Origin: Dhillonvirus LF50P3
Strand: one strand, 5' to 3'
DNA: 45,099 nt
Sequence record: OZ035753.1
Positions within the stretch are counted from its first letter, which is position 1. The number at the start of each line of letters is the position of its first letter. The position numbers were made by a program, and so were the translations under genes. The notes beneath the pieces are model-generated. The model was not told where the DNA came from and made no database searches. It saw only the letters and a list, made by a program, of their open reading frames with translations. Shown piece after piece: positions 4,585 to 43,855 of the stretch.

Positions 4585-4906
4585 GTATGCAGCGATTGGG
4601 CTGGTTATCGGTCTGGTGGTAGGATTCTGGCTAGGTGACTCCTATCGCGCTGGCGTAGTGGCGGAGGCGGCGCAAGAAGCGCAAGCAGAAGCCCAACGGC
4701 AGCAAACTAAAGTTATTGAGCGCTCCGTGCAGGCCGAACAAGCCCGCGACGTAGAATACCGGACTATCACGAAAGAGGTTGTTAAATATGTTACGCGCCC
4801 TAACCGCCCTGATTGTAGTTTTGATGCTGAGCGCGTGCGGATCAAGCAACGTGCCGTTGATGCCGCTAACGGAGTCGGCACTGCGACCGCCGTGCAAGTT
4901 CGATAA
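4547..4906 (+). CDS. i-spanin (Rz-like), putative
   Basis: N-terminal hydrophobic helix IKYAAIGLVIGLVVGFWLG followed by an Ala/Gln/Glu-rich coiled-coil-like segment; an out-of-frame lipoprotein ORF overlaps its 3' end, the classic overlapped spanin arrangement. Start could be ATG 4547 or GTG 4577. Confidence 0.55.
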   Translation: MHSLKTGGYGVIKYAAIGLVIGLVVGFWLGDSYRAGVVAEAAQEAQAEAQRQQTKVIERSVQAEQARDVEYRTITKEVVKYVTRPNRPDCSFDAERVRIKQRAVDAANGVGTATAVQVR

Positions 4907-5018
4907 CCCGTCCGCGGACCCCGACGAAGATTTGATGATTGACGTGAAAAATATGGAATGCGGCGCGAAGCTAAGGGCGCAAGTGCTGGATTTGCAGAAA
5001 ATAATTCGGGGGCTGTGA
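4779..5018 (+). CDS. o-spanin lipoprotein (Rz1-like), putative
   Basis: Signal peptide plus lipobox LRALTALIVVLMLSAC-GSS; short proline-containing mature part; starts inside the i-spanin ORF in the +1 frame and extends past it. Confidence 0.55.
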   Translation: MLNMLRALTALIVVLMLSACGSSNVPLMPLTESALRPPCKFDNPSADPDEDLMIDVKNMECGAKLRAQVLDLQKIIRGL

Positions 5019-5030
5019 TGGCCCCCTTTT
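5008..5030. terminator. bidirectional intrinsic terminator between convergent genes
   Basis: GGGGGC-tgtgatg-GCCCCC stem-loop followed by TTTT; lies between the o-spanin stop (5016–5018, inside the loop) and the stop of the minus-strand gene at 5032. Confidence 0.6.
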
Positions 5031-5031
5031 G

Positions 5032-5796
5032 TTAGCGCGGAATACCGCAGATTTCGTTTAACGTCTTCACGTCCAGCGCCACCGCCGTGGATTTAGGCTT
5101 GTCCGGGTATGGAATGAATTGTTCCACTTCAGGCCACGCCTTGATCAGCTTCTTATCGGTATTGTGCATATCCAGCACGCCGGTAACGGTTAGTTTGAAC
5201 GCGTCATACGTCGCGCGCAATTCGCGGCGGGCCTTGTCGTTACGGTCCAGGCGCTTGCAGAAATCATGATCCGCCGGGAAATCTGCACGACAGCGCGGCT
5301 TATAGATCGGCAGCGCTTTCCCATCCTCGTCCACTTCGCACACAGAAGCCAGCATTACTTCTTCGTACCCAGGTACAATATCGCCGAGATCGGGAGATAG
5401 CGTATTCATGTATTTATATTCCCAGTATCCGCGATGTACTCGGTATTGTAGTCCGTCACCGCTCAATGACAGTGTGCGCACATTTCCGCCTGCGTTGATT
5501 TCGAAAGTGGCGTCGTAAACTCTGCCGATGCCTTTTGGGCGGTCAGCGTTATAACTATACGTCGCCTTGTTGGTGTATACGCTTACTCCGTACATCTGCG
5601 ACGGGTCATCGCCGATTGCTTTAATGCGCGCGAGTAGCTCGGCGAAAGTGCGAATTCCTTCCGGCATACAGTCCAGCGTAATGGCGTACGCCAGGTCGCG
5701 CGAGTCCATCATGATGGATTTGGCTTCGGTCGCGATTTCGTGGTCGCGCAGGATGTTAGCCAGAATCTGGTTTTTAATGTCTTTTGTAAGTCTCAT
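5032..5796 (-). CDS. hypothetical protein encoded opposite to the structural operon
   Basis: 254-aa ORF starting MRLTKDIKNQ with RBS GAGGA 8 nt upstream. The six-frame ORF extends to 6243 but that N-terminal part is low-complexity antisense of the scaffold gene and was trimmed. Own promoter-like element upstream and terminator downstream. Confidence 0.6.
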   Translation of the reverse strand: MRLTKDIKNQILANILRDHEIATEAKSIMMDSRDLAYAITLDCMPEGIRTFAELLARIKAIGDDPSQMYGVSVYTNKATYSYNADRPKGIGRVYDATFEINAGGNVRTLSLSGDGLQYRVHRGYWEYKYMNTLSPDLGDIVPGYEEVMLASVCEVDEDGKALPIYKPRCRADFPADHDFCKRLDRNDKARRELRATYDAFKLTVTGVLDMHNTDKKLIKAWPEVEQFIPYPDKPKSTAVALDVKTLNEICGIPR

Positions 5797-5825
5797 TTTT
5801 GCGTCCTCGTTGTTGGTGTGCAACC

Positions 5826-5854
5826 AATATATGCAACCAATACGCGGATTGCAA
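5826..5854 (-). promoter_or_regulatory. sigma70-like promoter candidate for the 5032–5796 gene
   Basis: Read on the minus strand: TTGCAA, 17-nt spacer containing TTGGTTGCA, TATATT, then GGTTGCACACCAAC...GAGGAC...ATG. Nearly the same promoter and leader recur at 40380–40436. Confidence 0.45.
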
Positions 5855-5944
5855 GCGAATTTTGCGATTATTTTTATCACTGATAATATTAGAGGCGTGA
5901 AGTCGAGCGGGTGGCCCGCTCTGCCACAATCCCAGGGGGATAGC

Positions 5945-11422: not shown

Positions 11423-11737
11423 GCGGGACAAGCGGGACGTCCCGTTTTGTCCCGCCCCTGTGAAACTGCATACCTACTCACTCTCATTGCATAATCTAAA
11501 AGCGGGACAAGCGGGACGTCCCGTTTTGTCCCACCCCACAAAAGTGCATACGTATTCGGTTTTCGTGCATAAAACAAACGGGACAGAAAGCGGGACAAAC
11601 AAGAGGCGGGACAAAGCGGGACAGCACCCCGTCCCCGCCAGTGCTGCCGCGGTTTTCAGCCGATCGGGACAGGCGGGACAACCCCCAGTCTTTCAGACTA
11701 GACGGGGGTCAATGGCCCCCTCGTCTGAGACTGAATA
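11423..11737. repeat. CGGGAC(A) motif array with two 33-bp hairpin-palindromes and a long stem-loop (copy 1)
   Basis: Near-palindromic units GCGGGACAAGCGGGACGTCCCGTTTTGTCCC(G/A)C at 11423–11455 and 11502–11534; four direct CGGGACA sites at 11579–11623; two more at 11665–11680; imperfect long hairpin 11686–11733. The 11576–11737 part recurs at 40063–40219. Confidence 0.7.
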
Positions 11738-11801: not shown

Positions 11802-14444
11802 ATGGCAGATCAGGCAGCAGGCATCACGCTAAAGGCTGATGTTGCACAAATCAGAACGGCAAATACTGTGCTGGACTCCTTCGCACAGAAATCCGAGAAC
11901 ACAGAAAACAAGGTTAAGAAATTAAACGACACCCTCGGCAAATCCAAAAAGGTGACGAGTGACGCCGCGGGCGGAATGGAAAAGCTGGCAAACGAATCGC
12001 AGCGCGCCGCCGATGGCATGACTAAACAGGAGCGACTCGCCAACAGGTTAGGGATGTCGACTAAAAACCTGGGCTTTGCCTCGCGTAACGCCGCATTCCA
12101 GCTACAGGATATTGCGGTAACGCTTGAGATGGGGATGCCGGTTCACCGCGTCATGCTTCAGCAGTTACCGCAGCTAACTGGGGCGTTCGGTGGACTGGGT
12201 AACACGCTGCGTTATGTTGCGGGCTTCCTCGGCCCAGTAGGGATCGGCCTCGCCGCCGTAACGGCAACGTTAGGCGTGGGCGTGGCAATTACGTCCCGCG
12301 CAGAGAACCAGGTCGCCGCGCTTAACAAGACGCTGGCGCTGTCAGGTAACATTTCCGGCCTCACTGCAAACCAGATCCTGGTGTTATCCGAGAACGCCGA
12401 GCGCATGGGCGGATCATTCCGCAAGACGCGTGACACAATCCAGGCGCTGGCGGCGGCGGGTGTGAAAGCGGGTGGTGACTTCGGCGCATTGGCTAAGGTA
12501 GTTAATGACTTTGCGAAGGTGTCCAGCCAGCCGATCGAGGATGTGGTAGCGGCGGTGGCGAAGCTGTCAACCGACCCCGTTGGCGGACTGCGTGCGCTGG
12601 CGGATAAGTATCACGTCGTAAACGAAGCGCAGATCCAGCAGGTGCAGTCACTAGTGACGGCTGGTCGCGAAACCGAAGCGGTGGCGCTGGCTAACAAAAC
12701 AGCCGCAGCGTCGTTTACCACTATGACCAATGAGATCAAGTCCAACATGGGTACGCTTGAGCGGTCGATGAACGCCATCACCTCGGCAGCTAAATCTATG
12801 TGGGATGCCATCCTGGATGTTGGACGCGCGCAGTCATCGAATGAGTCCGAGATGAAAGCGCGTGAGTCATTGCAGCGGCTGACCACGGCTTACTATGCCG
12901 AGATGAAAGCGGTAAACGCTGCCGGTGGGGTGATGACTGAAGCGCAAAAAGCGCGTATTAATATGCTTTACAGCGAACTGGTAGCGCAGGAGAAGGTGGT
13001 GGCGTCGCTCACCCTGCGCAACCGAGCCGAGCGAGACAACGCAAGTGCCGCTGACGAAGCAGCAAAGGCGAACGAAGAGGCAAACCGCACCGCCCGCGAC
13101 CGCGCCGCGTTTGAGAAGGAGTACGCAACCAACGCGAAGAGGCGCGCCGACGAGATCGCCCGCCTCAATTTGCTTAATAAGCGCGGCGTGATTGACGAGA
13201 AAGAGCTTGCCGAGGCGGTGAAGCAGGTAAACGAGCGTTACAAAGACCCCGCCCCGAAGAAGGCCGCCGCTGTTCGAGTCGATGCCGGGCTGAAAATGCT
13301 GGAGGTCGCACGGAGCGAACTGGCACAGCTTCGAGAATCAGGCAAGCAGATCGAGGCCAACTCTTCGACGCAGACCCGCACGCAACGAGCGCAAGCGGCC
13401 CTTAACAAGCTGATTGCCGACAACGAGCAGTTAATCGCTGCGAGCAAAGAAAGGGCACTGACGGCAGCAGAGAAGCAGCAATTAGTCGAGTTCGGGCGCG
13501 TGAAGGAAGTCCGCGAGCAGATCGTCGAAGAAGCCAAATTGCTGGACGCGAAAGAGAAGCAGGTCAAGGCGCACGCGCAGATCGACGCCTTCGTTAAGAA
13601 CCAGAACGCCGAGCTAAAAGCCACCGCGGCGGGCTATGCGCTTTCCACTCGCGAAGCGGCTAACCTTCGCGAAGAATTGCAGCTAATTGATCGCCTGAAG
13701 CGGGTGGGCGCTAACGATACTGATATTGATCTGGCGGTATCTAAGCTGCGCGAAGTGCAGGAAGCACAGACCGGTGCTAACGCCTCGCTATGGGACGGCT
13801 TCAGCCGCGGGCTTAAGGATAGCGTGGATGAAATGGGTAACGGATATACGCAGATGGCGTCACTCACAAAATTCACGTTCGGCGCTATGCAGGACACGAT
13901 GAACGAGTTTTTCGAGACTGGCAAGCTGAACGCAAAGGATATGGTTAAGTCCATCCTGAGCGAATTAATCAAGCTGGCTACATCGCAGGCATTCAAGTCC
14001 ATCGTTAGCGCTTTCGGTGGCGACGGCGGCAAAAACGGATTGTTCGGCGCTATCTTCTCGGGCCTCACTAAGAATGCGGACGGCGGAGCGTACGCAGGGG
14101 GCAATCTCGCGGCCTATTCGGGGAAAGTGGTAAGCCAGCCTACCTTTTTCAGTTATGGCGTCCAGGCGTTCGCTAAGGGCGCAGGATTGATGGGTGAGGC
14201 CGGACCCGAAGCCATCATGCCACTGAAGCGCGGCCCGGACGGCAAACTTGGAGTCGCCGCTGCCGGTGTAGGCGGAGGGATGATTGTGACGACCAACGTT
14301 AACATGGGGACCGGTAAGACGGATACCAGTGTTAGCGGACCAGACCCGCGCACCGCGCAGGCGTTCGGAAAGCAAATCACCGAAGCGGTGAAGGCCGAGA
14401 TCGTGAAAGCGACGAAACCGGGTGGTGTACTTTACAAACGATGA
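11802..14444 (+). CDS. tail tape measure protein
   Basis: 880-aa, largely alpha-helical, Ala/Gln/Glu/Lys-rich ORF with hydrophobic and Gly-rich segments; downstream of G/G-T and upstream of the tail-tip genes. Confidence 0.85.
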   Translation: MADQAAGITLKADVAQIRTANTVLDSFAQKSENTENKVKKLNDTLGKSKKVTSDAAGGMEKLANESQRAADGMTKQERLANRLGMSTKNLGFASRNAAFQLQDIAVTLEMGMPVHRVMLQQLPQLTGAFGGLGNTLRYVAGFLGPVGIGLAAVTATLGVGVAITSRAENQVAALNKTLALSGNISGLTANQILVLSENAERMGGSFRKTRDTIQALAAAGVKAGGDFGALAKVVNDFAKVSSQPIEDVVAAVAKLSTDPVGGLRALADKYHVVNEAQIQQVQSLVTAGRETEAVALANKTAAASFTTMTNEIKSNMGTLERSMNAITSAAKSMWDAILDVGRAQSSNESEMKARESLQRLTTAYYAEMKAVNAAGGVMTEAQKARINMLYSELVAQEKVVASLTLRNRAERDNASAADEAAKANEEANRTARDRAAFEKEYATNAKRRADEIARLNLLNKRGVIDEKELAEAVKQVNERYKDPAPKKAAAVRVDAGLKMLEVARSELAQLRESGKQIEANSSTQTRTQRAQAALNKLIADNEQLIAASKERALTAAEKQQLVEFGRVKEVREQIVEEAKLLDAKEKQVKAHAQIDAFVKNQNAELKATAAGYALSTREAANLREELQLIDRLKRVGANDTDIDLAVSKLREVQEAQTGANASLWDGFSRGLKDSVDEMGNGYTQMASLTKFTFGAMQDTMNEFFETGKLNAKDMVKSILSELIKLATSQAFKSIVSAFGGDGGKNGLFGAIFSGLTKNADGGAYAGGNLAAYSGKVVSQPTFFSYGVQAFAKGAGLMGEAGPEAIMPLKRGPDGKLGVAAAGVGGGMIVTTNVNMGTGKTDTSVSGPDPRTAQAFGKQITEAVKAEIVKATKPGGVLYKR

Positions 14445-15867: not shown

Positions 15868-16608
15868 ATGTTAACGAAGAAGGTTAAAAGCGATATCGCC
15901 GCACACGTCGCGGCATGTCTGCCGGAAGAAGCCTGCGGCCTGGTTGTCATGGTGGGCCGTAAGCAAGTATTCGTCCCGTGCCTTAACGTGTTTGAAGACC
16001 CGACCGGCGTGCGCTCACGCAAAGACGCTTTCACTATTAGTGATATGGCCTGGATGGATGCCGAGGATATGGGCGACGTCGTGCGCGTAGTCCACTCGCA
16101 CCCAGGTCAGCGCGAGTTAACCCCGTCGTTGGGCGACGTTAACGGATGCAACGGCAGCGGCGTCGTCTGGACCATCACTAACGAATATGGCGACTTCATC
16201 GAGATCGACCCGGAAGACCCGCCGCTGGTAGGCCGCCGATTTGTTCTCGGGGTTACTGACTGTTACGGCCTCGTCATGGCATGGCATAAAAAGCAGGGCG
16301 TAAACCTGCCAGACTTCCGCGTACCGTACAACTGGTGGGAGACAGGCGAAAACCTGTATATGGACAATTGGTATGGAGCGGGCTTCCGGGAGTGTGCGGA
16401 GAATACGCCAGGGGCGATGGTCATCATGCAGATTAGCGCGCCAGTGCCTAACCATGCCGGAATCTACCTTCCGGGCAACCAACTACTACACCATATCTAC
16501 GGCAGTCTGTCGAGCGTGATACCCTTCCGGTCAGGATTTTTCCGCGACAATGTGGTTAAATGGGTGCGTCATAAAGACCTACCGGGGAATATCACAGAAT
16601 GGCAATGA
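15868..16608 (+). CDS. tail tip protein K-like (JAB/MPN metalloprotease-like plus NlpC/P60-like)
   Basis: 246-aa ORF with a JAMM-type motif VVHSHPG and a downstream Cys/His-containing domain, as in lambda gpK-family proteins. Confidence 0.7.
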   Translation: MLTKKVKSDIAAHVAACLPEEACGLVVMVGRKQVFVPCLNVFEDPTGVRSRKDAFTISDMAWMDAEDMGDVVRVVHSHPGQRELTPSLGDVNGCNGSGVVWTITNEYGDFIEIDPEDPPLVGRRFVLGVTDCYGLVMAWHKKQGVNLPDFRVPYNWWETGENLYMDNWYGAGFRECAENTPGAMVIMQISAPVPNHAGIYLPGNQLLHHIYGSLSSVIPFRSGFFRDNVVKWVRHKDLPGNITEWQ

Positions 16609-20666: not shown

Positions 20667-20688
20667 GGGGCCAGATGGCCCCATTTTC
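20667..20688. terminator. hairpin between convergent J gene and minus-strand cassette
   Basis: GGGGCC-agat-GGCCCC stem-loop followed by a short T tract; between the J stop (20659) and the minus-strand stop at 20687. Confidence 0.5.
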
Positions 20689-21652
20689 AATACATATTCG
20701 GGATGACGAGTAGCGGGGTTGGTACTGCAATATTTTTACTTGGCATCTGGAATTGCTGCCGTGAGTAGTTGCCGATGACGCGGTTTTTAGCGACGCGCAC
20801 ATTATTACCCGCCATGCGTATGCCGTTCATGCGGACGTGGTTATAGCCACCGTTGTTCTGAATCAGTGCGCCGGTGTATGAAAGCTGGATCAGGCTGTTT
20901 CCAATATTCTGGTCGCCCGTTCCGATGTTAATAGTGCGGTCATATACGAACGGCTTGTTCACCGTCGAGAACGTAACCTGATTCTGGTTATTCGTCATGG
21001 TGATTCCGGCCCCCGGCGTTGGTGGTGTGTTGTTGAATATCACCAAATCCATGTCCACCGAAGCCGCCACATCGTCGATGCCTCCATAGGACGCGTTGCG
21101 GACGATAATACTGCCGCCGTCGAAGCCTACTGATACGTTGCCATCGTCCCATCGGGCGAACGGGACACCGCTAACGGGCAATGCCATACTGCCGTTGACG
21201 CGCACGCGCTGTGCGTATCGGCAGGTCATTAGCTTAGACACGTTGGATATGGCGGTGAAGTCCGTCGAGTTAGCCACCAGTAAACCTGCGTTGCGCGACC
21301 CAACCGGCAGCACTTCCATTATGACGCCCGCCCATTGTGGTAAACCTGAGTACGCGCCATACACATCCTCCCCGCGCAGGGTTATTCCGCTATTACCGTT
21401 GCGAGTAACCGACGTAACGTAAAACGGATCAGGTATTACCAGTGTCTGGTCGAACACTTCAATCACCTCTACCGGGCGAGTGAGCGCTACGATTACTTGC
21501 GACCCCTCCGTAAGCGGGGTGTTAATGGTTAGCGTCTTGTTGGCCTGTGCCCGCTGGTTAAAGCTGGTGCAGTATGACGGCGCGCGGAGTCCCGCGGTGA
21601 TTTCCATTACCGGCCTGCCGTCGTTATAGTCGATAAGTATTCCAGCGCCCAT
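20687..21652 (-). CDS. hypothetical Asn/Gly/Val/Thr-rich protein co-transcribed with the Cor-like lipoprotein
   Basis: 321-aa ORF whose ATG lies 2 nt after the lipoprotein stop (TAATAATG), implying coupled translation; no signal peptide; composition resembles fiber or beta-helix proteins (GGYNHVRMNGIRMAGNNVRVAKNRVIGNY). Confidence 0.55.
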   Translation of the reverse strand: MGAGILIDYNDGRPVMEITAGLRAPSYCTSFNQRAQANKTLTINTPLTEGSQVIVALTRPVEVIEVFDQTLVIPDPFYVTSVTRNGNSGITLRGEDVYGAYSGLPQWAGVIMEVLPVGSRNAGLLVANSTDFTAISNVSKLMTCRYAQRVRVNGSMALPVSGVPFARWDDGNVSVGFDGGSIIVRNASYGGIDDVAASVDMDLVIFNNTPPTPGAGITMTNNQNQVTFSTVNKPFVYDRTINIGTGDQNIGNSLIQLSYTGALIQNNGGYNHVRMNGIRMAGNNVRVAKNRVIGNYSRQQFQMPSKNIAVPTPLLVIPNMY

Positions 21653-21654
21653 TA

Positions 21655-21876
21655 TTACCACTCCCGTGATTTAACTGATACGGTGCCTGAGAAATTGCCG
21701 TCGCTATCGGATGACAGCCCAGTGAATCGCATGTCCACATCTCCTGCCGGGACTTTTTGCCCGTCAACGTAGCGCAACATGCAGCTACCGTAAGCAACCG
21801 TAACGCAATCGCCATTGTTGCGTTCTACGGCGCAACCGGACAAAAGAACCGCACAAATCATAATTAAAGTTTTCAT
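21655..21876 (-). CDS. small lipoprotein, Cor-like superinfection-exclusion candidate
   Basis: 73-aa ORF starting MKTLIMICAVLLSGC (lipobox LSGC) with RBS AGGGGA; located opposite-strand beside tail-fiber genes as are Cor/Llp-type lipoproteins of FhuA-dependent phages. The listed 94-aa version was trimmed. Confidence 0.6.
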   Translation of the reverse strand: MKTLIMICAVLLSGCAVERNNGDCVTVAYGSCMLRYVDGQKVPAGDVDMRFTGLSSDSDGNFSGTVSVKSREW

Positions 21877-21955
21877 GGTATCATCCCCTATATTTGGTTG
21901 AGTTTTAGTATTACACCGCTCAACCAGGATTGCAACCAATTACGAGGATTTAGCT

Positions 21956-25026: not shown

Positions 25027-25548
25027 TTATTTCAGTGCGCTACGTACCAGTGTTTTTTCCATGTTGCGGAAGTCTTCCGGCGTCATGAGGATTTTGGACC
25101 CATCCTCGCCAGTGAGCACGACAATAGGCTGGACGTCCTGGGCTACGACGCCGAAATCGGCGGCTTTGACAGTCTTGCCCGCAGATGCCGAAGGACTCCA
25201 CGTTCCGCCTGTTTTGATGGGCCAACCTTTAAGGCTGTCGTATTGCGCTGCCGTTGTATCGACCTGAATCTCGTCGTGTACGGTCATGTACGACTCGCCC
25301 AGCAATGCGGCATACGCCACCAGATCCACGATGTTATCTTCCTGGTGCTTACGGTGCTGGCGCACCAGCTTCAGGCAGATCAGGAAGGTCCAGGCTTCTT
25401 GCTCGGTAAGGTCGCGACCGGTAAGCGCGTTAAACACGGCGGCGACCTGTTTAGCGCTGCGTTCTTCTTTCGCGTTGTCATAGCCGTTTTCTTTTCCGCG
25501 CTGCTCCATAGTGGTGGCGGCGTTTTTGCAGTATTCGTATGCTTTCAT
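25027..25548 (-). CDS. hypothetical protein
   Basis: 173-aa ORF preceded by a sigma70-like promoter candidate; no confident motif. Confidence 0.5.
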   Translation of the reverse strand: MKAYEYCKNAATTMEQRGKENGYDNAKEERSAKQVAAVFNALTGRDLTEQEAWTFLICLKLVRQHRKHQEDNIVDLVAYAALLGESYMTVHDEIQVDTTAAQYDSLKGWPIKTGGTWSPSASAGKTVKAADFGVVAQDVQPIVVLTGEDGSKILMTPEDFRNMEKTLVRSALK

Positions 25549-25593: not shown

Positions 25594-25623
25594 ACTATAG
25601 TGCAACCAACCTATTGGTTGCAA
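25594..25623 (-). promoter_or_regulatory. sigma70-like promoter candidate overlapping a 22-bp palindrome
   Basis: Minus-strand reading TTGCAA, 18-nt spacer, TATAGT; the -35 lies inside the palindrome TGCAACCAAcctaTTGGTTGCA (25601–25622), which also overlaps the stop of the upstream gene. Confidence 0.45.
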
Positions 25624-26081: not shown

Positions 26082-26302
26082 TTTAATTCCTCAACCAAAT
26101 CCGAACGAACAACTCTGGCGGAAAACTTGTTACACACAAGATGCCAATTTGCGGTTATGACAAGCCAGCCGGTAAGGTCCATACCCAGGATATATTCTGG
26201 ACGTGACACTCGCTTCACACGATCGCGGCGCGGGTCGATGTTATAGTCTCTTTGCATTCGGTCTACTACCGCGGGGTCGCGGTCAACGATTAAGATATTC
26301 AT
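26078..26302 (-). CDS. hypothetical protein
   Basis: 74-aa ORF from the internal ATG (MNILIVDRD); the listed ORF starts at GTG 26311. Packed between the HAD-like and Dam-like genes. Confidence 0.4.
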   Translation of the reverse strand: MNILIVDRDPAVVDRMQRDYNIDPRRDRVKRVSRPEYILGMDLTGWLVITANWHLVCNKFSARVVRSDLVEELK

Positions 26303-26768
26303 GTAACTCACTCTCGCTCATTATTTCAATTTGTGCGCTGCCGATGGGCGGCGCTTCGTCAAATATTATCAATTGCTGGCACTTGTTATTGCTCGGCCCG
26401 ACTTCACCGGTTACAGCGTGTATAAATCTCACCCGCCAGTCCAGAAGAATTATCAGGTTTGCAGTCCTCCGGGCCAGCCTCGCCCACTTCGTCGACGTGT
26501 CCTGATTCAGTAGCATGACAGTCCGGCGTCCGTGCGCTGCGCACTCGACCCACGGCAGCGGGTCGGAATACGGCGGATTGCACCACTTCCACCCTTTCAA
26601 CTCTGCCCAGTCCACATCAAGCGCGCTGTGCTCTGCCGTGAAGTAACGCGGTAGCAGATGATTGGCGTCGCTTGCCGCCATATCGTAACGGAATCGGTAT
26701 TTCCGACGAAGCGGTTTAAATAAAGCTGGCGGCGTGCGCCAGCTATCTTTTTGCTCACTCTTCAGCAT
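26283..26768 (-). CDS. dam: DNA N6-adenine methyltransferase (phage Dam-type)
   Basis: 161-aa ORF with N-terminal WRTPPALF, DMAASDANHL and the catalytic NPPY motif, matching the small phage Dam family. Confidence 0.75.
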   Translation of the reverse strand: MLKSEQKDSWRTPPALFKPLRRKYRFRYDMAASDANHLLPRYFTAEHSALDVDWAELKGWKWCNPPYSDPLPWVECAAHGRRTVMLLNQDTSTKWARLARRTANLIILLDWRVRFIHAVTGEVGPSNNKCQQLIIFDEAPPIGSAQIEIMSESELHEYLNR

Positions 26769-27219
26769 GATCTTGGTCTATCGCGTACAGGGCAATCTTA
26801 TCGCCTTTCGTCAAGATGCGCTGCACGCGCTTTGACTCCTCGGCGCTCATAGGGCGAGCGTTCGGGTATAGGCTGCCGTTTGTGGGATTGCGCCACGCCA
26901 CAAGCACCAGATCTTTCCGGTCGATCTTAGACTGGCGGCCCTTCGGTCGCACGTACGCCTCGGCCCGTTTGCAATGCTCGCGCAGACCTTCGGCAGTGAT
27001 GCGGTTTAGCGCGACGGTGGTTGTGTACCCGGTGCGCTGCATAATACCCATCAACTCATACAGCAGTTCGAAGCGCTCCTCTAACTCCTTGCGCATCTTT
27101 TCCTCGCCTTCATAGCTCGCCAGGTAGGTATCCGCCAGCGCGTTCGCCCGTTCGACCTGTTCGCGGGCTTCGAGGCATTGCGCGGCCCAGTAATTTTTCT
27201 CTTCTTGTAAAATTTTCAT
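26755..27219 (-). CDS. hypothetical protein
   Basis: ORF from MKILQEEKNYWAAQ with RBS GGAGA; promoter-like element 27266–27294 upstream; helical and charged, no confident motif. Confidence 0.5.
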   Translation of the reverse strand: MKILQEEKNYWAAQCLEAREQVERANALADTYLASYEGEEKMRKELEERFELLYELMGIMQRTGYTTTVALNRITAEGLREHCKRAEAYVRPKGRQSKIDRKDLVLVAWRNPTNGSLYPNARPMSAEESKRVQRILTKGDKIALYAIDQDHAEE

Positions 27220-27265
27220 CGTGTTGTCTCCAGGTATTAAAAAGGGCGTCCAACCGGACACCCTT

Positions 27266-27294
27266 AAGATAATGCAACCAATCTAATTATGCAA
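27266..27294 (-). promoter_or_regulatory. sigma70-like promoter candidate with tandem TTGGTTGCA elements
   Basis: Minus-strand reading aTTGGTTGCATaattagaTTGGTTGCATTATCTT: TTGCAT, 17-nt spacer, TATCTT. Confidence 0.45.
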
Positions 27295-27299
27295 CCAAT

Positions 27300-27623
27300 T
27301 TACGAATAAAAATTTGGGTCGCGTGCAACGTCTACCAGATACAGATTGCAGATTCGGTTGCCGTAGTGGCCTGGTGTTCGCTGGCGGCACACAACGGCGT
27401 AGCCTGGAGGAATTGTATTGCCGGTCGCGATAATCCACGCCACGCGTGCGCCCGATAGAGTTTTGCCGTTGCATTCGATGCGCGTGCCGCCATCTGCAGT
27501 GTTAAGGTTGCCGATTTTGCAGCCGGTGGACTTCAGACGAATGACGCCGGTTTTGCTGTCGTAGGTGAATAGCTGGTTAGTCATTGCGACCGAAAAGTCG
27601 ATGGCTTCGAATGTCGTATTCAT
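27300..27623 (-). CDS. HNH-like endonuclease, possibly degenerate
   Basis: 107-aa ORF whose layout (YDSKTGVIRLK...GKTLSGARVAWIIATG...GNRICNLYLV) resembles small phage HNH homing-endonuclease-like proteins, but the canonical His-Asn-His residues are not clearly present. Confidence 0.45.
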   Translation of the reverse strand: MNTTFEAIDFSVAMTNQLFTYDSKTGVIRLKSTGCKIGNLNTADGGTRIECNGKTLSGARVAWIIATGNTIPPGYAVVCRQRTPGHYGNRICNLYLVDVARDPNFYS

Positions 27624-28330
27624 TTTAAATTTTCCTCGTTAACCGCTATCGCGAAGCCGCGCGGAGTGAGCGACCGGATTAATTTTGTGCGGGCTGATTT
27701 GCCTCCGAGGCGACTATACTGCTTCGAGTACCCTTTTTCAACGAAAACGGGTTTCTTCTCTGGCATACGGAAGCCGTTGCCGGTCCATAAGCAGGTCAGC
27801 TTCGGATATGAATCGCGGGCGTTGATGTATTCCGGGAAGAGCGGGTGTACGTCATCCTCCGGCAGATATCCCCCATACTCCCACGGGTCGAATGAGTGAT
27901 CCGGTTTGCGCCACTGGGTGGATAGCACACTGCGCGGATTCTCAATCATATATGGCACTTCGAAGAAGTCACCCAGGTAAGCGGCGATCTTCGCGGTGCG
28001 CACCGCCTTAAGCTGAAAGGCTGGGTCTTTTGCACGCTTGCGCGGGAAAGCTGGCGCACCGCTCACTGCCAGATCCGTGCACGGAGGAAACGCATAGATG
28101 ATATCTGGCGTACCGAAATCGCCATTCATCGCACGGTCTACAAAGTCCAGATCGATAAACTCATTGCGATACCGGATTCCGCGACCATAAATCCGGTAGT
28201 CAAGGTAAGACCCGTGATCGGCTTCGGAGTAGTTGAAGCAATAACACTTATGCCCCATCTCAGCCGCACGCTCAATCATCAAGCCGCTGCCGTCAAACAA
28301 CGACCAGATTGTCATTTTAGCAATAGTCAT
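27620..28330 (-). CDS. C5-cytosine DNA methyltransferase-like protein (compact)
   Basis: 236-aa ORF with motif I-like SLFDGSG, motif IV-like AFPPCTDLAVSG (catalytic Cys, Thr in place of the usual Gln) and motif VI-like MIENPRS; shorter than typical C5 methyltransferases. Confidence 0.5.
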   Translation of the reverse strand: MTIAKMTIWSLFDGSGLMIERAAEMGHKCYCFNYSEADHGSYLDYRIYGRGIRYRNEFIDLDFVDRAMNGDFGTPDIIYAFPPCTDLAVSGAPAFPRKRAKDPAFQLKAVRTAKIAAYLGDFFEVPYMIENPRSVLSTQWRKPDHSFDPWEYGGYLPEDDVHPLFPEYINARDSYPKLTCLWTGNGFRMPEKKPVFVEKGYSKQYSRLGGKSARTKLIRSLTPRGFAIAVNEENLK

Positions 28331-30017: not shown

Positions 30018-30191
30018 TTATGCTTGCGCTGCGCGGTAACGGCGCTGCCGTTCACGCTCTTTTTTATTGCGGCATGATTTGCACTCGGCCCTATACCCGT
30101 CTGGACTGCGCGCAGTCTTACCGGTGTATTTGTGGAACTGGGATAGCGGCTTGATGCAACCGCAATTACTGCAGCGTTTTTCTTCAATCAT
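30018..30191 (-). CDS. zinc-ribbon-like small protein
   Basis: 57-aa ORF from MIEEKRCSNCGC with RBS GAGGA 8 nt upstream; two Cys pairs (CSNCGC ... CKSC) and a basic C-terminus. Confidence 0.45.
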   Translation of the reverse strand: MIEEKRCSNCGCIKPLSQFHKYTGKTARSPDGYRAECKSCRNKKERERQRRYRAAQA

Positions 30192-30231
30192 TTCTAAAAT
30201 CCTCGTTAGTGCTAACCTGCTCACTATACTG

Positions 30232-30510
30232 TTACGCGACCAATTCAGCAACCAATAAATCACAGTCGGCTATGTTGTCGATGACGCGAACGTCCGCACC
30301 GCGGCGGGCCATCCGCTCATGTTCTCGTACCTGGTGCGGCTTCGGTTTGCCTCCGGGGCGCTTCACTTCGACGAAAACTATTCTGCCGTTGATGATGATA
30401 ATCAGATCGGGCGCACCGGCGCGCCCCTCCCAAGCCACTTTGCGGCAGAATCCGCCGACGGCTTTCACCAGCTTCATAAGGTGACTTTGAATCTTGCCTT
30501 CTGGTGTCAT
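30232..30510 (-). CDS. VRR-NUC domain nuclease
   Basis: 92-aa ORF with PDLIIIINGRIVFVEVKRPGGK, the D...E.K core of VRR-NUC/PD-(D/E)xK nucleases commonly found next to phage helicase genes. Confidence 0.7.
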   Translation of the reverse strand: MTPEGKIQSHLMKLVKAVGGFCRKVAWEGRAGAPDLIIIINGRIVFVEVKRPGGKPKPHQVREHERMARRGADVRVIDNIADCDLLVAELVA

Positions 30511-34002: not shown

Positions 34003-34092
34003 TTTCCAATTCCTCATTTTCACATATATCGGGGTTATTGGAAGCCACCCCGTTCGGCTTGGTTGCCAATTTACTTGGTTGCGCCTAAGCGG

Positions 34093-34335
34093 TCAAGCAT
34101 TTTCATTAAAAAGATTTCTGGTAACGTAGTCGGTAGCGTTCTCGATCCAGCTTAATGGCGGGCGGTCGATATTCTTCGCCCCCCAATCGGCGGCAGCTTC
34201 GCTATATCCGTCATCCAGCCAGCGGGTCGGATGCCGAATCATCCACGCCACCCTTAACACGCCATGCACACAATGCAGGATAAAGCCCAGCGCGCCGATA
34301 ACAAACATCAATAATATTGCGAATACTTTATTCAT
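34093..34335 (-). CDS. hypothetical membrane protein
   Basis: 80-aa ORF with N-terminal hydrophobic helix VFAILLMFVIGALGFILHCV. Confidence 0.4.
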   Translation of the reverse strand: MNKVFAILLMFVIGALGFILHCVHGVLRVAWMIRHPTRWLDDGYSEAAADWGAKNIDRPPLSWIENATDYVTRNLFNENA

Positions 34336-36895: not shown

Positions 36896-37132
36896 GGTAT
36901 ATCTCCGATTGGTTAAGTTTAGGTGTCGGCAGTTAACTTCGTCGGTGGCCTTAACATATTGCCAGGTTACGCGTTCTCCCGTTCGGGTAGTGGACCTGGT
37001 TATATAATCACGGTTGGGAATCCTGACACTTCGATCCGGCCCCTGCGTTGCCCCTCTCCAGTTTGCGTCCTGCATCCTGTCGACGGGGGGAATAATAGAT
37101 TGGTTGCAGGATGGGTGTCAACAACTAATTTC

Positions 37133-37237: not shown

Positions 37238-37266
37238 TTGACACAGTGCAGTTTTGGGTGTAGTTT
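37238..37266 (+). promoter_or_regulatory. sigma70-like promoter candidate for the HTH gene
   Basis: Consensus -35 TTGACA, 17-nt spacer, -10-like TAGTTT; about 30 nt upstream of the ATG at 37298 with RBS GAGGG. Confidence 0.4.
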
Positions 37267-37297
37267 CGTTGGTCATTAACCAACTGAGGGCAGAGCA

Positions 37298-37627: not shown

Positions 37628-37637
37628 GGCCACGGCA

Positions 37638-39902: not shown

Positions 39903-39977
39903 ATCCTGCGCGCATTGGTTGCCGATATGGGAATTCCCATATCGCTAAATGGTTAAATTTTGCGCGCATTGGTTGCC
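39901..39977. repeat. 23-bp direct repeats flanking a perfect 22-bp palindrome
   Basis: AAATCCTGCGCGCATTGGTTGCC (39901–39923) and AAATTTTGCGCGCATTGGTTGCC (39955–39977); between them CGATATGGGAATTCCCATATCG (39923–39944) is its own reverse complement; a third partial copy GTATTGGTTGCCG at 40001–40013. Confidence 0.7.
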
Positions 39978-40062
39978 ATTTTGAGTGTTTTTATCAGGTC
40001 GTATTGGTTGCCGTGTAGTGTGAATATAGTGAATAGTTATGCAGTTTTGTTGCATAAAGTAA

Positions 40063-40219
40063 GCGGGACAGAAAGCGGGACAAACAAGGGGCGGGACAAA
40101 GCGGGACAGCACCCCCGTCCCGCCCCGGATGGCGCGGCCTGGAGAGGAGCGGGACAGGCGGGACAACCCCCAGTCTTTCAGACTAGACGGGGGTCAATGG
40201 CCCCCCTCGTCTGAGACTG
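40063..40219. repeat. CGGGAC(A) motif array and long stem-loop (copy 2)
   Basis: GCGGGACA at 40063, 40075, 40091, 40101, 40149 and 40158, then the hairpin CAGTCTTTCAGACTAGACGGGGGTCAATGGCCCCCCTCGTCTGAGACTG (40171–40219); near-identical to 11576–11737. Confidence 0.7.
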
Positions 40220-40379
40220 AATAAAATCCGGGGATTGCAAAACACACGGCAGCATGATGCGAAGTTCGGTCGTCGACGAACTAGGCAACCAATGCGGGTC
40301 GCATTATGCCGAGTGAAAAATGCAGTTTGCAGCCACAGCGGATAGCGATCAACTTTTTCATGCGCGTGATTAACATTGG

Positions 40380-40408
40380 TTGCACCCTACCTGGCACCCT
40401 GCTATATT
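40380..40408 (+). promoter_or_regulatory. sigma70-like promoter candidate with conserved leader
   Basis: TTGCAC (inside ATTGGTTGCAC), 17-nt spacer, TATATT, then TTGGTTGCACACCAACGTGAGGAC...ATG at 40437; the -10 and leader closely match 5797–5831 on the minus strand. Confidence 0.45.
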
Positions 40409-40436
40409 GGTTGCACACCAACGTGAGGACTGAACA

Positions 40437-40742: not shown

Positions 40743-40751
40743 GGGGCCAAA

Positions 40752-41021: not shown

Positions 41022-41170
41022 TCAAAGTTCAGAGCAAGGCAACCGGTCTGATTTATCTTGTGGTGTGGGAGGGGAACGGAAGCGTAACGCTCATGCACCC
41101 AAAAACCAAATCACGCCACACTATCAGCCAATTTACCCTGAACCAGAACTATCGGAGACTGAGCAAATGA
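41018..41170 (+). CDS. hypothetical small protein
   Basis: 50-aa ORF bounded at both ends by the repeated junction motif, which supplies RBS, ATG and the overlapping upstream stop. Confidence 0.4.
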   Translation: MIKVQSKATGLIYLVVWEGNGSVTLMHPKTKSRHTISQFTLNQNYRRLSK

Positions 41171-42377: not shown

Positions 42378-42395
42378 TTATGCAAGCGTGATATA

Positions 42396-43440: not shown

Positions 43441-43456
43441 TACGAGGTAACACAGT

Positions 43457-43650: not shown

Positions 43651-43855
43651 TTGCTTGACTCGCAACCAACACAGGGGCCATACTGCAACCAATCAACTGG
43701 AGGAGTAATCAAGATGGCACGTAAAGATATTTGGGTATTAGCGATCTGGACCACCGCGGCTTTTATCGGCATGGTTATTTGCGAATTGATATAGCCCGTC
43801 GCAATACGGACCGTGGTATATTGTCCACGGTCCACTAATCAGGAATTAATTAAAT

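What the first reader, a model, noticed from the sequence alone, without database searches (positions are those of the whole stretch)
5797..5860. Recurring TTGGTTGCA element in promoter-like regions, with a near-identical promoter and leader at two distant loci
Seen directly: TTGGTTGC(A/C) or its complement recurs in intergenic or gene-boundary regions at about 5822–5840, 21930–21940, 25601–25622 (as a perfect palindrome), 27273–27298 (tandem), 34058–34085 (tandem), 37101–37110, 39914–39923, 39968–39977, 40004–40013, 40376–40385, 40407–40416 and 43662–43690. In several cases it overlaps a sigma70-like -35 (TTGCAA/TTGCAT/TTGCAC) with a 17–18 nt spacer to a TATATT/TATAGT/TATCTT -10. The stretch -10 TATATT plus leader TTGGTTGCACACCAAC...GAGGAC is nearly identical upstream of the minus-strand gene at 5796 and the plus-strand gene at 40437. 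Inference: a phage-specific promoter family or an operator for a phage regulator; the HTH protein at 37298–37627 is a candidate.
Basis: partly seen in the sequence, partly recalled or inferred. Interest (0 to 1): 0.6.

Follow-up and report, generated by a model that had tools for sequence, protein, structure and literature searches.

The report
Conserved 8-mer operator in phage promoters
A lytic E. coli phage carries about twenty exact copies of TTGGTTGC packed into the promoters of nearly all its non-structural transcription units and beside its likely replication origin; related phages of other genera share the word, so it is probably the binding site of an unidentified phage regulator.

Summary
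The window is a complete Dhillonvirus genome (HK578/SO-1-like lytic siphophage). TTGGTTGC occurs 22 times against 2 expected, and 17 copies lie in the 7.5% of the genome that is non-coding (P about 1e-15). One-mismatch variants are not enriched.

Copies sit in three fixed positions of sigma70-like promoters: supplying the -35 (TTGCAx, 17-bp spacer), abutting the -10, or overlapping the -10 and start site. There are usually two per promoter, in either orientation. They cover nine promoters that between them head most non-structural transcription units, and none of the structural operons. Four further copies flank a cluster of GC-rich iterons downstream of the primase-helicase gene.

The 8-mer is conserved as islands in variable spacers within the genus. 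It is equally enriched in Eiauvirus eiAU (23 copies) and in two Guernseyvirinae (13 and 12). Jersey-like and Cornell-like phages carry TTGGCTGC at the homologous origin-flanking positions.

Best reading: an operator for a conserved, co-evolving phage-encoded DNA-binding protein that occludes early and middle promoters and also marks the origin. The binder remains unidentified. I found no description of the motif in the literature I could search.

The parts
5820..5840 (-). Two co-oriented 8-mers (5833-5840, 5820-5827) in the promoter of the Nmad5-domain gene 5032-5796. One fills the spacer and one overlaps the -10 and start site.
   Evidence: TTGCAA-17-TATATT, 5854-5826; both copies invariant in 4 Dhillonvirus genomes while the flanks vary
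5813..5827 (-). TTGGT-N5-ACCAA palindrome at the start site, followed by the ACCAAC leader and the GAGGA ribosome-binding site.
   Evidence: the same element occurs at 37269-37283 and 40407-40421
21907..21939 (-). 8-mer 21932-21939 supplying the -35 TTGCAA (21935-21930), a 17-nt spacer and the -10 AATACT (21912-21907). This is the promoter of the lipoprotein plus receptor-binding-protein genes 21876-20687. A degenerate reversed copy TTGGTTGA lies at 21894-21901.
   Evidence: LM40P1 has two exact copies here; hexamers read by hand
25594..25623 (-). Inverted pair 25602-25609 (-) and 25614-25621 (+) in the promoter TTGCAA-18-TATAGT of gene 25027-25548.
   Evidence: in LM40P1 the pair is tandem instead of inverted, yet two copies are kept
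27266..27298 (-). Tandem pair 27291-27298 and 27274-27281. The first gives the -35 TTGCAT and the second fills the 17-nt spacer before the -10 TATCTT (27271-27266). This is the promoter of the hyp33-Dam-phosphatase operon.
   Evidence: hexamers read by hand
30223..30255 (-). 8-mer 30248-30255 giving the -35 TTGCTG, a one-mismatch copy TTGGTCGC at 30236-30243 in the spacer, and the -10 TATAGT (30228-30223). This is the promoter of the zinc-ribbon gene 30018-30191, and it lies inside the 3' end of the VRR-NUC gene.
34059..34096 (-). Promoter TTGACC-17-TAAATT of the SSB gene (33220-34029). It holds two reversed 8-mers (34075-34082 and 34059-34066, both on the + strand), one in the spacer and one just after the -10.
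37092..37121 (-). The best sigma70 match in the window, TTGACA-18-TATTAT (11 of 12). It is the promoter of the leftward operon starting with acidic protein 36377-37075. A reversed 8-mer (37100-37107, + strand) ends 2 nt before the -10.
37238..37283 (+). Promoter-like TTGACA-17-TAGTTT of the HTH gene and primase-helicase operon, with the TTGGTCATTAACCAA palindrome (37269-37283) at the start site. There is no exact 8-mer here.
   Evidence: hexamers read by hand
39915..40011 (+). Three co-oriented 8-mers of the TTGGTTGCC type (39915, 39969, 40004) between the primase-helicase stop codon and the GC-rich iterons. No convincing promoter was found around them.
   Evidence: copies at the homologous position in eiAU, VLCpiS11a and Otaku, and as TTGGCTGC in SenTO17, Shemara and phiEap-2
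40063..40165 (+). Six GCGGGACA iterons forming an origin-like cluster, which corresponds in position to 'region B' of SO-1. They lie inside the doubtful 61-aa ORF 40029-40214. They are context for the 8-mer, not part of it.
40285..40292 (-). Reversed 8-mer on the far side of the iteron cluster.
   Evidence: invariant in 4 genomes
40376..40421 (+). Promoter of the rightward operon starting at 40437. The 8-mer 40376-40383 gives the -35 TTGCAC, followed by a 17-nt spacer and the -10 TATATT (40403-40408). The 8-mer 40407-40414 overlaps the -10 and start site. The palindrome is at 40407-40421, followed by the ACCAAC leader.
   Evidence: homologous promoter and leader in SenTO17 and Shemara
43655..43692 (+). 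Promoter TTGACT-18-CATACT after terminator 43625-43646. It holds two reversed 8-mers (43662-43669 and 43685-43692, both on the - strand), one just after the -35 and one just after the -10. It drives a 26-aa ORF (43714-43794) and the SbcD-like gene 43856-44998.
13125..13132 (-). Coding copy in the tape-measure gene. Coding copies are also at 16475-16482 and 40940-40947. These are probably incidental, and the number matches the roughly 2 expected by chance.

Best explanation
TTGGTTGC, usually (A/G)TTGGTTGC(A/C), is most likely the recognition site of a sequence-specific DNA-binding protein encoded by the phage.

How it would work. Two sites are embedded in the RNA-polymerase footprint of nine sigma70-type promoters that head most of the non-structural transcription units: over the -35, against the -10, or over the -10 and start site, in either orientation. 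When the protein accumulates it would occlude these promoters together. That would give coordinated shut-off or feedback control of early and middle transcription, while the structural operons, which lack the site, are unaffected.

The origin. Further copies flank the GC-rich iteron cluster next to the primase-helicase gene. The same protein would therefore also act at, or gate transcription into, the likely replication origin.

What is shown: non-randomness, placement, the fixed positions, conservation, and the lineage-specific T/C variant. What is inferred: that the site binds a protein, that the effect is repression, and what the binder is.
For: Non-randomness.
- 22 copies against 2 expected, with 17 in the 7.5% of the genome that is non-coding.

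Fixed positions in promoters.
- Across 93 sites in five genomes, a -10-like hexamer starts 19 nt after the site in 15 cases. That equals TTGC plus 2 nt as the -35, then a 17-nt spacer.
- It starts 2 nt after the site in 9 cases.
- It overlaps the site start by 2 nt in 13 cases.
- 1.2 cases are expected at each offset.

Features that fit occlusion better than recruitment.
- Reversed copies occupy the spacer and start-site positions (34096-34068, 37121-37092, 43655-43684).
- The promoters are already decent sigma70 matches without any activator (7 to 11 of 12 positions).
- There are usually two sites per promoter. LM40P1 turns an inverted pair into a tandem pair and gains a second copy at 21954/21971.

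Conservation.
- Motif columns are invariant in 88% of cases against 61% for other intergenic columns in 4 Dhillonviruses.
- The same 8-mer is enriched in eiAU (23 against 2.0 expected), VLCpiS11a (13 against 1.3 expected) and Otaku (12). In eiAU and VLCpiS11a copies sit in the same -35, spacer and start-site positions; Otaku was not checked in detail, and several of its copies lie inside genes.

A phage-encoded, co-evolving binder.
- SenTO17, Shemara and phiEap-2 have TTGGCTGC at the homologous origin-flanking positions and, in SenTO17 and Shemara, promoter positions.
- The window has 22 T-type copies and 0 C-type copies.
Against: - No binder is identified. No protein with an obvious sequence-specific fold is both conserved across all lineages that have the motif and conserved in its DNA-reading part.
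- The site is asymmetric and is kept as an exact 8-mer with almost no degenerate copies. That is unusual for operators and more like an enzyme or iteron recognition word.
- Three or four origin-flanking copies are not in recognisable promoters.
- The fixed -35 position in about 15 promoters could equally suit an activator.
- No transcription start sites or time-course data exist for this genus in the literature I could search.
- The promoter scan as a whole is not enriched over shuffles.
Confidence: 0.5

Rival explanations
1. The 8-mer is an iteron-type recognition word of the replication initiator, the 754-aa primase-helicase. Its primary role would be at the origin, and the promoter copies would be a secondary, autoregulatory use. 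This is close to the way P4 alpha binds 8-bp type I iterons, and to the way SV40 large T antigen binds its origin and represses early promoters (both comparisons from memory). It overlaps with the best explanation and differs only in naming the binder and the primary function.
For: - The cluster next to the 3' end of the primase-helicase gene is the most widely conserved location: window 39915-40414 (6 copies), eiAU 26868-27640 (9), VLCpiS11a 4793-5323 (3), Otaku 26646-26760 (4), SenTO17 and Shemara (3 C-type).
- eiAU has 5 more copies in the second iteron region, before the tape-measure gene.
- The primase-helicase is present in every lineage.
- Its C-terminal 90 residues read like a winged helix (judged by eye from the alignment).
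- The exact, asymmetric 8-mer with variable spacing and orientation fits binding by a single protein domain.
Against: - The putative winged helix is hypervariable between lineages that share the identical 8-mer. That fits the lineage-specific GC-rich iterons (GCGGGACA, CGCCCCG, GGGGGAG, CGGACAA) better.
- 15 of the 19 intergenic or gene-boundary copies in the window lie in predicted promoters; only four flank the iterons without one.
- Profile search against solved structures found only a weak RepA-helicase match and no origin-binding domain.
- The window's own iteron region A (11423-11680) has no 8-mer.
Confidence: 0.2
2. The 8-mer is a promoter-specificity element. A phage activator, or a factor that re-targets the host sigma subunit, would recognise it at the -35 and switch the host polymerase to a phage 'middle' promoter class, as T4 MotA does with its box (comparison from memory).
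For: - The commonest single position is the -35 position with an exact 17-nt spacer: 15 of 93 sites, 13 times the expected number.
- In those promoters the -35 is always the sub-optimal TTGCAx.
- The motif marks one coherent class of transcription units.
Against: - As many copies lie in the spacer or over the start site, where an activator would clash with the polymerase.
- Seven of 19 intergenic or gene-boundary copies in the window are reversed.
- Promoters whose only copies are reversed and in the spacer have their own good -35 (TTGACA, TTGACC, TTGACT).
- Among the 20 proteins scanned against Pfam, the only sigma-like hit is the weak region-4 match of the HTH protein at 37298-37627, and nothing resembled an activator such as MotA.
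Confidence: 0.12
3. The HTH protein at 37298-37627 is the binder.
For: - It has a C-terminal HTH of the HTH_23 / sigma region 4 / LuxR type, which could read an asymmetric site as a monomer.
- It is the first gene of the rightward operon.
- Its own start site carries a TTGGT-N5-ACCAA palindrome that shares the TTGGT half.
Against: - It has no homologue in eiAU, VLCpiS11a or Otaku, which have the same 8-mer in the same promoter positions. They encode an unrelated Cro-like HTH_3 protein at that locus.
- It is only 76% identical between the window and Oekolampad, although all sites are identical.
Confidence: 0.08
4. The sites bind a host protein shared by Enterobacterales, such as a global regulator or nucleoid protein.
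For: - The identical 8-mer is used by phages of E. coli, Sodalis, Edwardsiella, Klebsiella and Serratia whose small early genes are otherwise unrelated.
- Partial resemblance, from memory, to the CytR half-site GTTGCA and to the GntR-family half-site ATTGGT.
Against: - The strict T versus C split at position 5 follows phage lineage. It would require Salmonella to differ from E. coli while Serratia and Edwardsiella do not.
- Kagunaviruses of E. coli and Raoultella have a single copy.
- The whole 8-mer is invariant, not just the part resembling any host site I could recall. No database of host sites was searched.
Confidence: 0.06
5. The 8-mer is the target of a phage enzyme, such as a methyltransferase or nicking endonuclease, rather than of a regulator.
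For: - The exact 8-mer with no degenerate copies looks like an enzyme site.
- The Dam-like methyltransferase (26283-26768, NPPY motif intact) is the only gene whose presence matches the motif perfectly across 10 genomes.
Against: - Dam-negative relatives have almost no GATC (1-12 observed against 157-175 expected), while Dam-positive ones have normal counts. The enzyme is therefore about GATC, and the match with the motif is probably a lineage effect.
- An enzyme site has no reason to be confined to promoters and to fixed positions within them.
- The sites occur on both strands.
Confidence: 0.04

Closest known systems
Repressor operators embedded in phage early promoters (lambda OR/OL with CI and Cro; phi29 p4 sites). 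From memory.
   Same: Several sites per promoter overlap the -35, spacer, -10 and start site of host-polymerase promoters. One protein would control many early transcription units. Control of transcription next to the origin could couple regulation to replication, as in lambda.
   Different: The sites here are asymmetric exact 8-mers without dyad symmetry. They are used in either orientation and with spacings of 12-31 bp. They are spread over nine promoters of a strictly lytic phage. No cognate repressor gene is recognisable.
Origin iterons bound by a primase-helicase: phage P4 alpha protein with its 8-bp type I iterons in ori and crr. From memory.
   Same: An exact asymmetric octamer, in both orientations and with irregular spacing, clustered beside a primase-helicase gene. 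This phage group also has two iteron regions, A and B.
   Different: In this phage the P4-like two-locus clusters are formed by a different repeat, GCGGGACA. Most copies of TTGGTTGC are in promoters far from either cluster. The helicase here is of the RepA/DnaB-like AAA_25 type. No similarity to the alpha origin-binding domain was detected.
SV40 large T antigen and its GAGGC pentamers. From memory.
   Same: As a working analogy, one short asymmetric word flanks the origin and overlaps early promoters, so that an origin-binding replication protein would shut off early transcription.
   Different: There is no homology. Binding by a replication protein is only a hypothesis here.
T4 middle promoters (MotA box plus AsiA). 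From memory.
   Same: A 9-bp asymmetric box replaces the -35 upstream of a normal -10 in a class of non-late promoters.
   Different: The MotA box has one position and one orientation. Here there are three positions and both orientations. No MotA or AsiA relatives appeared in the proteins scanned.
SO-1 GenBank annotation of 'region A' and 'region B' repeat regions (GQ502199).
   Same: The regions that SO-1 annotates as repeat regions A and B correspond in position to the window's two GCGGGACA clusters (11423-11680 and 40063-40165). By position, SO-1's region B would also take in the origin-flanking 8-mers.
   Different: That annotation describes repeats in two regions in general terms. It does not describe the dispersed promoter-associated 8-mer.

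Membership tests
sigma70-type promoter | A -35-like and a -10-like hexamer separated by 16-18 bp, upstream of a gene on the same strand | tested here: met
   Five promoters were found by the scan. Four more were read (21935-21907, 27294-27266, 30251-30223, 40380-40408). All lie 20-70 nt upstream of a start codon.
sigma70-type promoter | Transcription start 6-8 nt downstream of the -10 | not testable with these tools
   No start-site or RNA-seq data for Dhillonvirus in the searchable literature.
Repressor operator overlapping a promoter | The site lies within the polymerase footprint (-40 to +10) | tested here: met
   Offsets relative to -10-like hexamers peak at +19, +2 and -2, at 8-13 times the expected number.
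Repressor operator overlapping a promoter | Dyad symmetry matching a dimeric repressor | tested here: not met
   The 8-mer is asymmetric. Only 25601-25622 is an inverted pair, and LM40P1 has a tandem pair there.
Repressor operator overlapping a promoter | A cognate DNA-binding protein encoded by the same genome and co-distributed with the sites | tested here: inconclusive
   The HTH protein at 37298-37627 is restricted to the genus. The Cro-like proteins of the relatives do not track the motif type. Only Dam matches the distribution, and it is explained by GATC.
Repressor operator overlapping a promoter | Demonstrated binding and repression | not testable with these tools
   Needs gel-shift, ChIP and reporter assays.
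Replication-origin iterons | Clustered repeats adjacent to or inside the initiator gene | tested here: inconclusive
   6 of 22 copies lie within 500 bp after the primase-helicase gene, and the same location is conserved in six other lineages. However, the dense regular cluster there is GCGGGACA, not the 8-mer.
Replication-origin iterons | Sequence co-varies with the initiator's DNA-binding domain | tested here: not met
   The C-terminal winged-helix-like segment differs strongly among lineages that share the identical 8-mer. That the segment is a DNA-binding domain is judged by eye only.
T4 MotA-box middle promoter | The box has a single position and orientation, replacing the -35 | tested here: not met
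   Three positions and both orientations.
T4 MotA-box middle promoter | MotA-like and AsiA-like proteins encoded | tested here: inconclusive
   None among the 20 proteins scanned against Pfam. Not every small ORF was scanned.
Known RNA element | Match to a curated RNA family | tested here: not met
   No Rfam family reaches its gathering score anywhere in the window.
Methyltransferase or nickase recognition site | Modified base or strand break at the site | not testable with these tools
   Needs long-read sequencing or nick mapping of virion DNA. The indirect evidence points to GATC as the Dam target.

The most novel reading that the evidence does not exclude
One conserved replication protein, most plausibly the primase-helicase, or alternatively the small basic zinc-ribbon protein at 30018-30191, reads the 8-mer both at the origin and in about ten early promoters. 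A tailed phage would then couple origin recognition to global early-gene shut-off in the manner of SV40 T antigen. Changing a single base (T5 to C5) would re-key the whole circuit between phage lineages.
Probability: 0.15. Interest if true: 0.7.

Novelty: new member of a known kind. Interest (0 to 1): 0.45.

Why it matters
Dhillonviruses and Guernseyvirinae are among the coliphages and Salmonella phages most often isolated and used for therapy and for defence-system screens, yet nothing is known about how they time their gene expression.

- **A map of the non-structural promoters.** The 8-mer marks the promoters that head most non-structural transcription units. These include the units embedded antisense in the structural module, such as the receptor-binding and superinfection-exclusion locus.
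- **A handle on an unknown regulator.** It defines a regulon of about ten promoters for a factor that can now be fished out with a 10-bp bait.
- **A portable expression cassette.** SO-1 has swapped the gene at 5032-5796 for a different one but kept the cassette of two 8-mers plus the ACCAAC leader. This is useful for phage engineering.
- **A built-in specificity control.** The single-base T/C difference between lineages can serve as the control in binding experiments.

The kind of element, a phage operator or iteron word, is familiar.

Tried and rejected
1. **HTH protein 37298-37627 as binder.** Rejected as the binder of the shared 8-mer because it is absent from motif-rich relatives.
2. **Cro-like HTH_3 proteins of the relatives.** Their recognition helices do not follow the T/C motif type. 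VLCpiS11a (T-type) resembles SenTO17 (C-type) more than it resembles eiAU (T-type). Dhillonviruses lack such a protein.
3. **hyp48 (36377-37075).** It is conserved everywhere and sits behind the strongest motif promoter. The alignment shows an acidic, low-complexity protein, not a DNA binder.
4. **Dam methyltransferase.** Its distribution matches the motif perfectly, but this is explained by the all-or-none GATC content.
5. **Primase-helicase C-terminal segment.** The homology search with the fragment returned nothing. Profile search against solved structures gave only a weak RepA match. Pfam gave only AAA_25. I therefore ran no structure prediction.
6. **Zinc-ribbon protein 30018-30191.** Only 3 database relatives were found, too few for a useful model. 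It remains a speculative candidate. It is basic (net charge about +10). T-type and C-type lineages differ by a 3-residue indel. It is absent from the single-copy Kagunaviruses. A motif promoter sits directly upstream of it in three lineages.
7. **Scan of viral contigs for tandem pairs.** This gave mostly chance or coding-repeat hits and was uninformative.
8. **RNA-level role of the TTGGT...ACCAA leader.** The predicted hairpins are weak (-3.4 to -7.6 kcal/mol), and the 5' arm lies upstream of the likely start site. There was no Rfam hit.
9. **Phage T1.** It has 8 copies, mostly in coding sequence, so I did not treat it as having the system.
10. **Literature.** Searches for the motif string and for promoter or regulation work on these phages found nothing relevant. 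Subscription-only papers, including the SO-1 and HK578 genome papers, could not be read.
11. **Tool handling.** Several searches were wasted re-fetching loci before I noticed that one data file holds several records.
Full report
**What the window is.** The 45,099-bp window matches over its whole length, at 90-95% identity, more than 130 records of Dhillonvirus phages. These are HK578/SO-1-like lytic siphophages of E. coli, such as slur05, Oekolampad (Bas18) and SO-1. I transferred the 65 annotated genes of Oekolampad by tblastn to obtain a gene map.
- The structural genes run on the + strand from 30 to 20659.
- Two antisense units are embedded in that module: 5032-5796 and 20687-21876.
- The replication genes run leftward from 37276 to 24409.
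- A rightward block, 37298-44998, holds an HTH protein, the primase-helicase, small unknown genes, the lysis genes and an SbcD-like nuclease.

**Checking the observation.** TTGGTTGC occurs 22 times against 1.97 expected, and no shuffle reached 22. ATTGGTTGC and ATTGGTTGCA are the commonest 9-mer and 10-mer of the genome.

Non-coding DNA makes up 7.5% of the window and holds 17 of the 22 copies, P = 1.4e-15. Two more copies sit on a stop codon or in the last codons of a gene. The three truly internal coding copies match the chance expectation.

One-mismatch variants are not enriched in intergenic DNA (5 of 43), so the word is unusually sharp. The near-identical -10 plus leader at 5797-5831 (minus strand) and 40403-40436 is confirmed.

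**Position relative to promoters.** Reading each site in context and using the consensus scan, I find nine sigma70-like promoters carrying the word.

| Promoter (strand) | Hexamers | Position of the 8-mer copies |
|---|---|---|
| 5854-5826 (-) | TTGCAA-17-TATATT | Spacer, and overlapping the -10/start; both co-oriented |
| 21935-21907 (-) | TTGCAA-17-AATACT | The copy is the -35 |
| 25623-25594 (-) | TTGCAA-18-TATAGT | Inverted pair: -35 and spacer |
| 27294-27266 (-) | TTGCAT-17-TATCTT | Tandem: -35 and spacer |
| 30251-30223 (-) | TTGCTG-17-TATAGT | -35, plus a one-mismatch copy in the spacer |
| 34096-34068 (-) | TTGACC-17-TAAATT | Two reversed copies: spacer and just after the -10 |
| 37121-37092 (-) | TTGACA-18-TATTAT | One reversed copy in the spacer |
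| 40380-40408 (+) | TTGCAC-17-TATATT | -35, and overlapping the -10/start |
| 43655-43684 (+) | TTGACT-18-CATACT | Two reversed copies: after the -35 and after the -10 |

I pooled 93 sites from five genomes and counted -10-like hexamers at each offset from the site.
- Starting 19 nt after the site (the -35 position): 15 cases.
- Starting 2 nt after the site: 9 cases.
- Overlapping the site start by 2 nt: 13 cases.
- Expected at each offset: 1.2 cases.

The word is therefore built into promoters at three preferred positions, all inside the polymerase footprint, and in either orientation.

These nine promoters head most of the non-structural transcription units. They include the antisense Nmad5-domain gene and the locus downstream of the J gene. 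The BASEL paper identifies that locus as the receptor-binding-protein locus (PMC8594841), and its first gene matches a phage lipoprotein family. None of the intergenic regions of the structural operons has the word.

**Copies beside the origin.** Four copies (39915, 39969, 40004 and the reversed 40285) flank six GCGGGACA repeats at 40063-40165, immediately after the primase-helicase gene. A second GCGGGACA cluster lies at 11423-11680. The two clusters correspond in position to the 'region A' and 'region B' repeat regions annotated in the SO-1 record. I could not find convincing promoters around 39915-40011.

**Conservation within the genus.** Oekolampad, SO-1 and LM40P1 (the last about 78% identical in the region compared) have 21, 21 and 23 copies at homologous places. 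In four-genome alignments of the nine regions, 88% of motif columns are invariant against 61% of other intergenic columns. The words stand out as islands in variable spacers.

Copy number per promoter is kept while arrangement changes. LM40P1 has a tandem pair where the window has the inverted pair at 25602/25614. It also has a second exact copy where the window has a degenerate one at 21894. SO-1 has a different gene in place of 5032-5796 but keeps the promoter with two 8-mers and the leader.

**Conservation beyond the genus.** The same 8-mer is enriched in three phages outside the genus.

| Phage | Copies | Expected |
|---|---|---|
| Edwardsiella phage eiAU (Eiauvirus) | 23 | 2.0 |
| Klebsiella phage VLCpiS11a (Guernseyvirinae) | 13 | 1.3 |
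| Serratia phage Otaku (Guernseyvirinae) | 12 | not computed |

The preferred flank in eiAU and VLCpiS11a is G rather than A. The promoter geometry is the same: eiAU 42943 and 18146, and VLCpiS11a 19000, 34811 and 15419, all supply TTGCAx with a 17-nt spacer to TATAGT-like hexamers.

In eiAU, nine copies follow the primase-helicase gene and five precede the tape-measure gene. In each place they sit next to CGCCCCG repeats.

Other Guernseyvirinae (SenTO17, phiEap-2, Shemara, Shashou, RP180) have only 1-3 copies. But SenTO17, Shemara and phiEap-2 carry TTGGCTGC at the homologous positions around their own iteron cluster (GGGGGAG or CGGACAA). In SenTO17 and Shemara a copy also lies just upstream of a TTGCAA-17-TAATAT promoter followed by the same ACACCAAC...GAGGAG leader. 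The window has no TTGGCTGC at all.

**Who reads it.** I could not settle this.
- **HTH protein 37298-37627.** It has a real C-terminal HTH but no homologue outside Dhillonvirus.
- **Cro-like proteins at that locus in the other lineages.** They do not follow the motif type.
- **hyp48.** It is acidic and low-complexity.
- **Unbiased presence/absence screen over ten genomes.** It singles out only the Dam-like methyltransferase, whose NPPY motif is intact. But Dam-negative relatives have essentially no GATC, and Dam-positive ones have normal counts. The enzyme is therefore about GATC, and its match with the motif is most simply a shared-lineage effect.
- **Primase-helicase.** It is present everywhere. 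Its last ~90 residues look like a winged helix, but that segment is hypervariable among lineages sharing the identical word. This fits the variable GC-rich iterons better.
- **Basic zinc-ribbon protein 30018-30191.** It is present in every lineage with three or more copies and absent from the single-copy Kagunaviruses. A 3-residue indel separates T-type from C-type lineages. A motif promoter sits directly upstream of it in three lineages. This is suggestive only, and its database family is tiny.

**Most likely mechanism.** Several features fit occlusion of the polymerase by a bound protein better than recruitment:
- two sites per promoter,
- all sites inside the footprint,
- either orientation,
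- promoters that are already reasonable sigma70 matches.

I therefore favour coordinated repression, or feedback control, of the early and middle promoter class. The structural operons lie outside the regulon. The terS upstream region instead has a perfect extended -10, TGtTATAAT, at 45052-45060.

The origin-flanking copies suggest that the same factor also acts at the origin or gates transcription into it. From memory, this resembles transcriptional activation of the lambda origin under Cro/CI control, or T-antigen binding at the SV40 origin and early promoter.

The non-randomness, placement, fixed positions, conservation and T/C variant are shown by tool results. Protein binding, the direction of the effect and the identity of the binder are inference.

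**A second, genus-specific element.** TTGGT-N5-ACCAA occurs exactly three times in the window, each over the predicted start site of a promoter: 5813-5827, 37269-37283 and 40407-40421. One of these is the HTH gene's own promoter. It is absent from eiAU, VLCpiS11a and SenTO17. The HTH protein, which is also genus-specific, would be a natural candidate for this dyad, but that is untested.

**Comparison with what is known.** The element works like a set of phage operators and looks like an iteron word.
- It fails the dyad-symmetry feature of classical operators.
- It fails the single-position feature of T4 MotA boxes.
- It fails the co-variation feature expected of iterons of the primase-helicase.
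- It matches no Rfam family.
- It resembles host sites I could recall (DnaA box, CytR, GntR-type, NtrC) only in part.

I found no mention of the word, or of promoter or regulatory analysis for these phages, in the searchable literature. The SO-1 record annotates only the two repeat regions. Papers behind paywalls could not be checked.

**Verdict.** This is a real, strongly supported cis-element and a new example of a familiar kind of thing, with an unidentified reader. It is of moderate interest. It gives a ready map of the non-structural promoters and a simple bait for finding the regulator in a widely used phage group.

Noticed in passing
window 11423-11680 and 40063-40165: A second over-represented 8-mer, GCGGGACA (16 copies against 2.0 expected), forms two dense clusters. 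One lies between the tail genes and the tape-measure gene. The other lies just after the primase-helicase gene, inside the annotated 61-aa ORF 40029-40214, which is therefore doubtful as a gene. The repeat word differs by lineage: ACGGGACA in LM40P1, CGCCCCG in eiAU, GGGGGAG in SenTO17 and Shemara, CGGACAA in phiEap-2. SO-1 annotates the corresponding regions as repeat regions A and B. The arrangement looks like a two-locus origin (compare P4 ori plus crr, from memory).
   Followed up: partly
whole window compared with loci L004, L005, L006, L130-L133, L135, L136: GATC content is all-or-none. Relatives without the Dam-like gene have 1-12 GATC against 157-175 expected. Those with it, including this window (168 observed, 173 expected), have normal counts. 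This implies that the 161-aa Dam-like enzyme (26283-26768) targets GATC, and that there is strong selection against unmethylated GATC in this phage group.
   Followed up: partly
window 45019-45060: A terminator (45019-45039) is followed by a perfect extended -10, TG-t-TATAAT (45052-45060), upstream of terS, with no 8-mer. This is a candidate late promoter of a different, -35-independent class.
   Followed up: no
window 43714-43794 (+): An unannotated 26-aa hydrophobic ORF (MARKDIWVLAIWTTAAFIGMVICELI) with a GGAGG ribosome-binding site lies directly after the promoter at 43655-43684. It is conserved in Oekolampad, and at least its first part is conserved in SO-1.
   Followed up: partly
window 27235-27263 (-): An 8-bp GC-rich hairpin plus a T-run (terminator-like) begins about 5 nt downstream of the -10 of the promoter with two 8-mers at 27266-27298. 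LM40P1 keeps it with compensatory changes. It could be an attenuator, a 5' stabiliser, or the terminator of the upstream operon placed after the next promoter.
   Followed up: no
window 36377-37075 (-): The first gene behind the strongest promoter encodes a protein (phrog_3127) with three parts: a conserved N-terminal helix, a K/E/P-rich low-complexity linker and a very acidic C-terminal domain. It is conserved across nearly all related lineages examined. Most database relatives start about 60 residues later than this ORF does. A 52-66-nt piece of its 5' end is 83-92% identical in unrelated phages (Jilinvirus Arya, T1-like phages). It could be a DNA mimic or a host-takeover factor.
   Followed up: partly
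window 39925-39944: A perfect 20-bp palindrome, GATATGGGAATTCCCATATC, lies between the first two origin-flanking 8-mers. It is absent from SO-1 and truncated in LM40P1.
   Followed up: no
window 5032-5796 (-) compared with SO-1 5082-5600: The antisense gene in the head module encodes an Nmad5 (nucleotide-modification-associated) domain protein (Pfam E = 2e-56). SO-1 has a beta-clamp-like gene in the same slot, behind the same promoter and leader. The slot therefore behaves as an exchangeable moron site.
   Followed up: partly
window 39600-39899 (primase-helicase residues about 655-754): The C-terminal segment reads like a winged-helix domain and is hypervariable between lineages, in parallel with the lineage-specific GC-rich iterons. 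Residues 240-290 hold an invariant Cys/His cluster, probably the primase zinc site.
   Followed up: partly
locus L136 (phage T1): T1 has its own highly repeated words: ACCAGTCAG (14 copies) and ACCAATCAG (11), which extend to AACCAGTCAG and ACCAATCAGG, and CAAAAAGTGCTAT (8).
   Followed up: no
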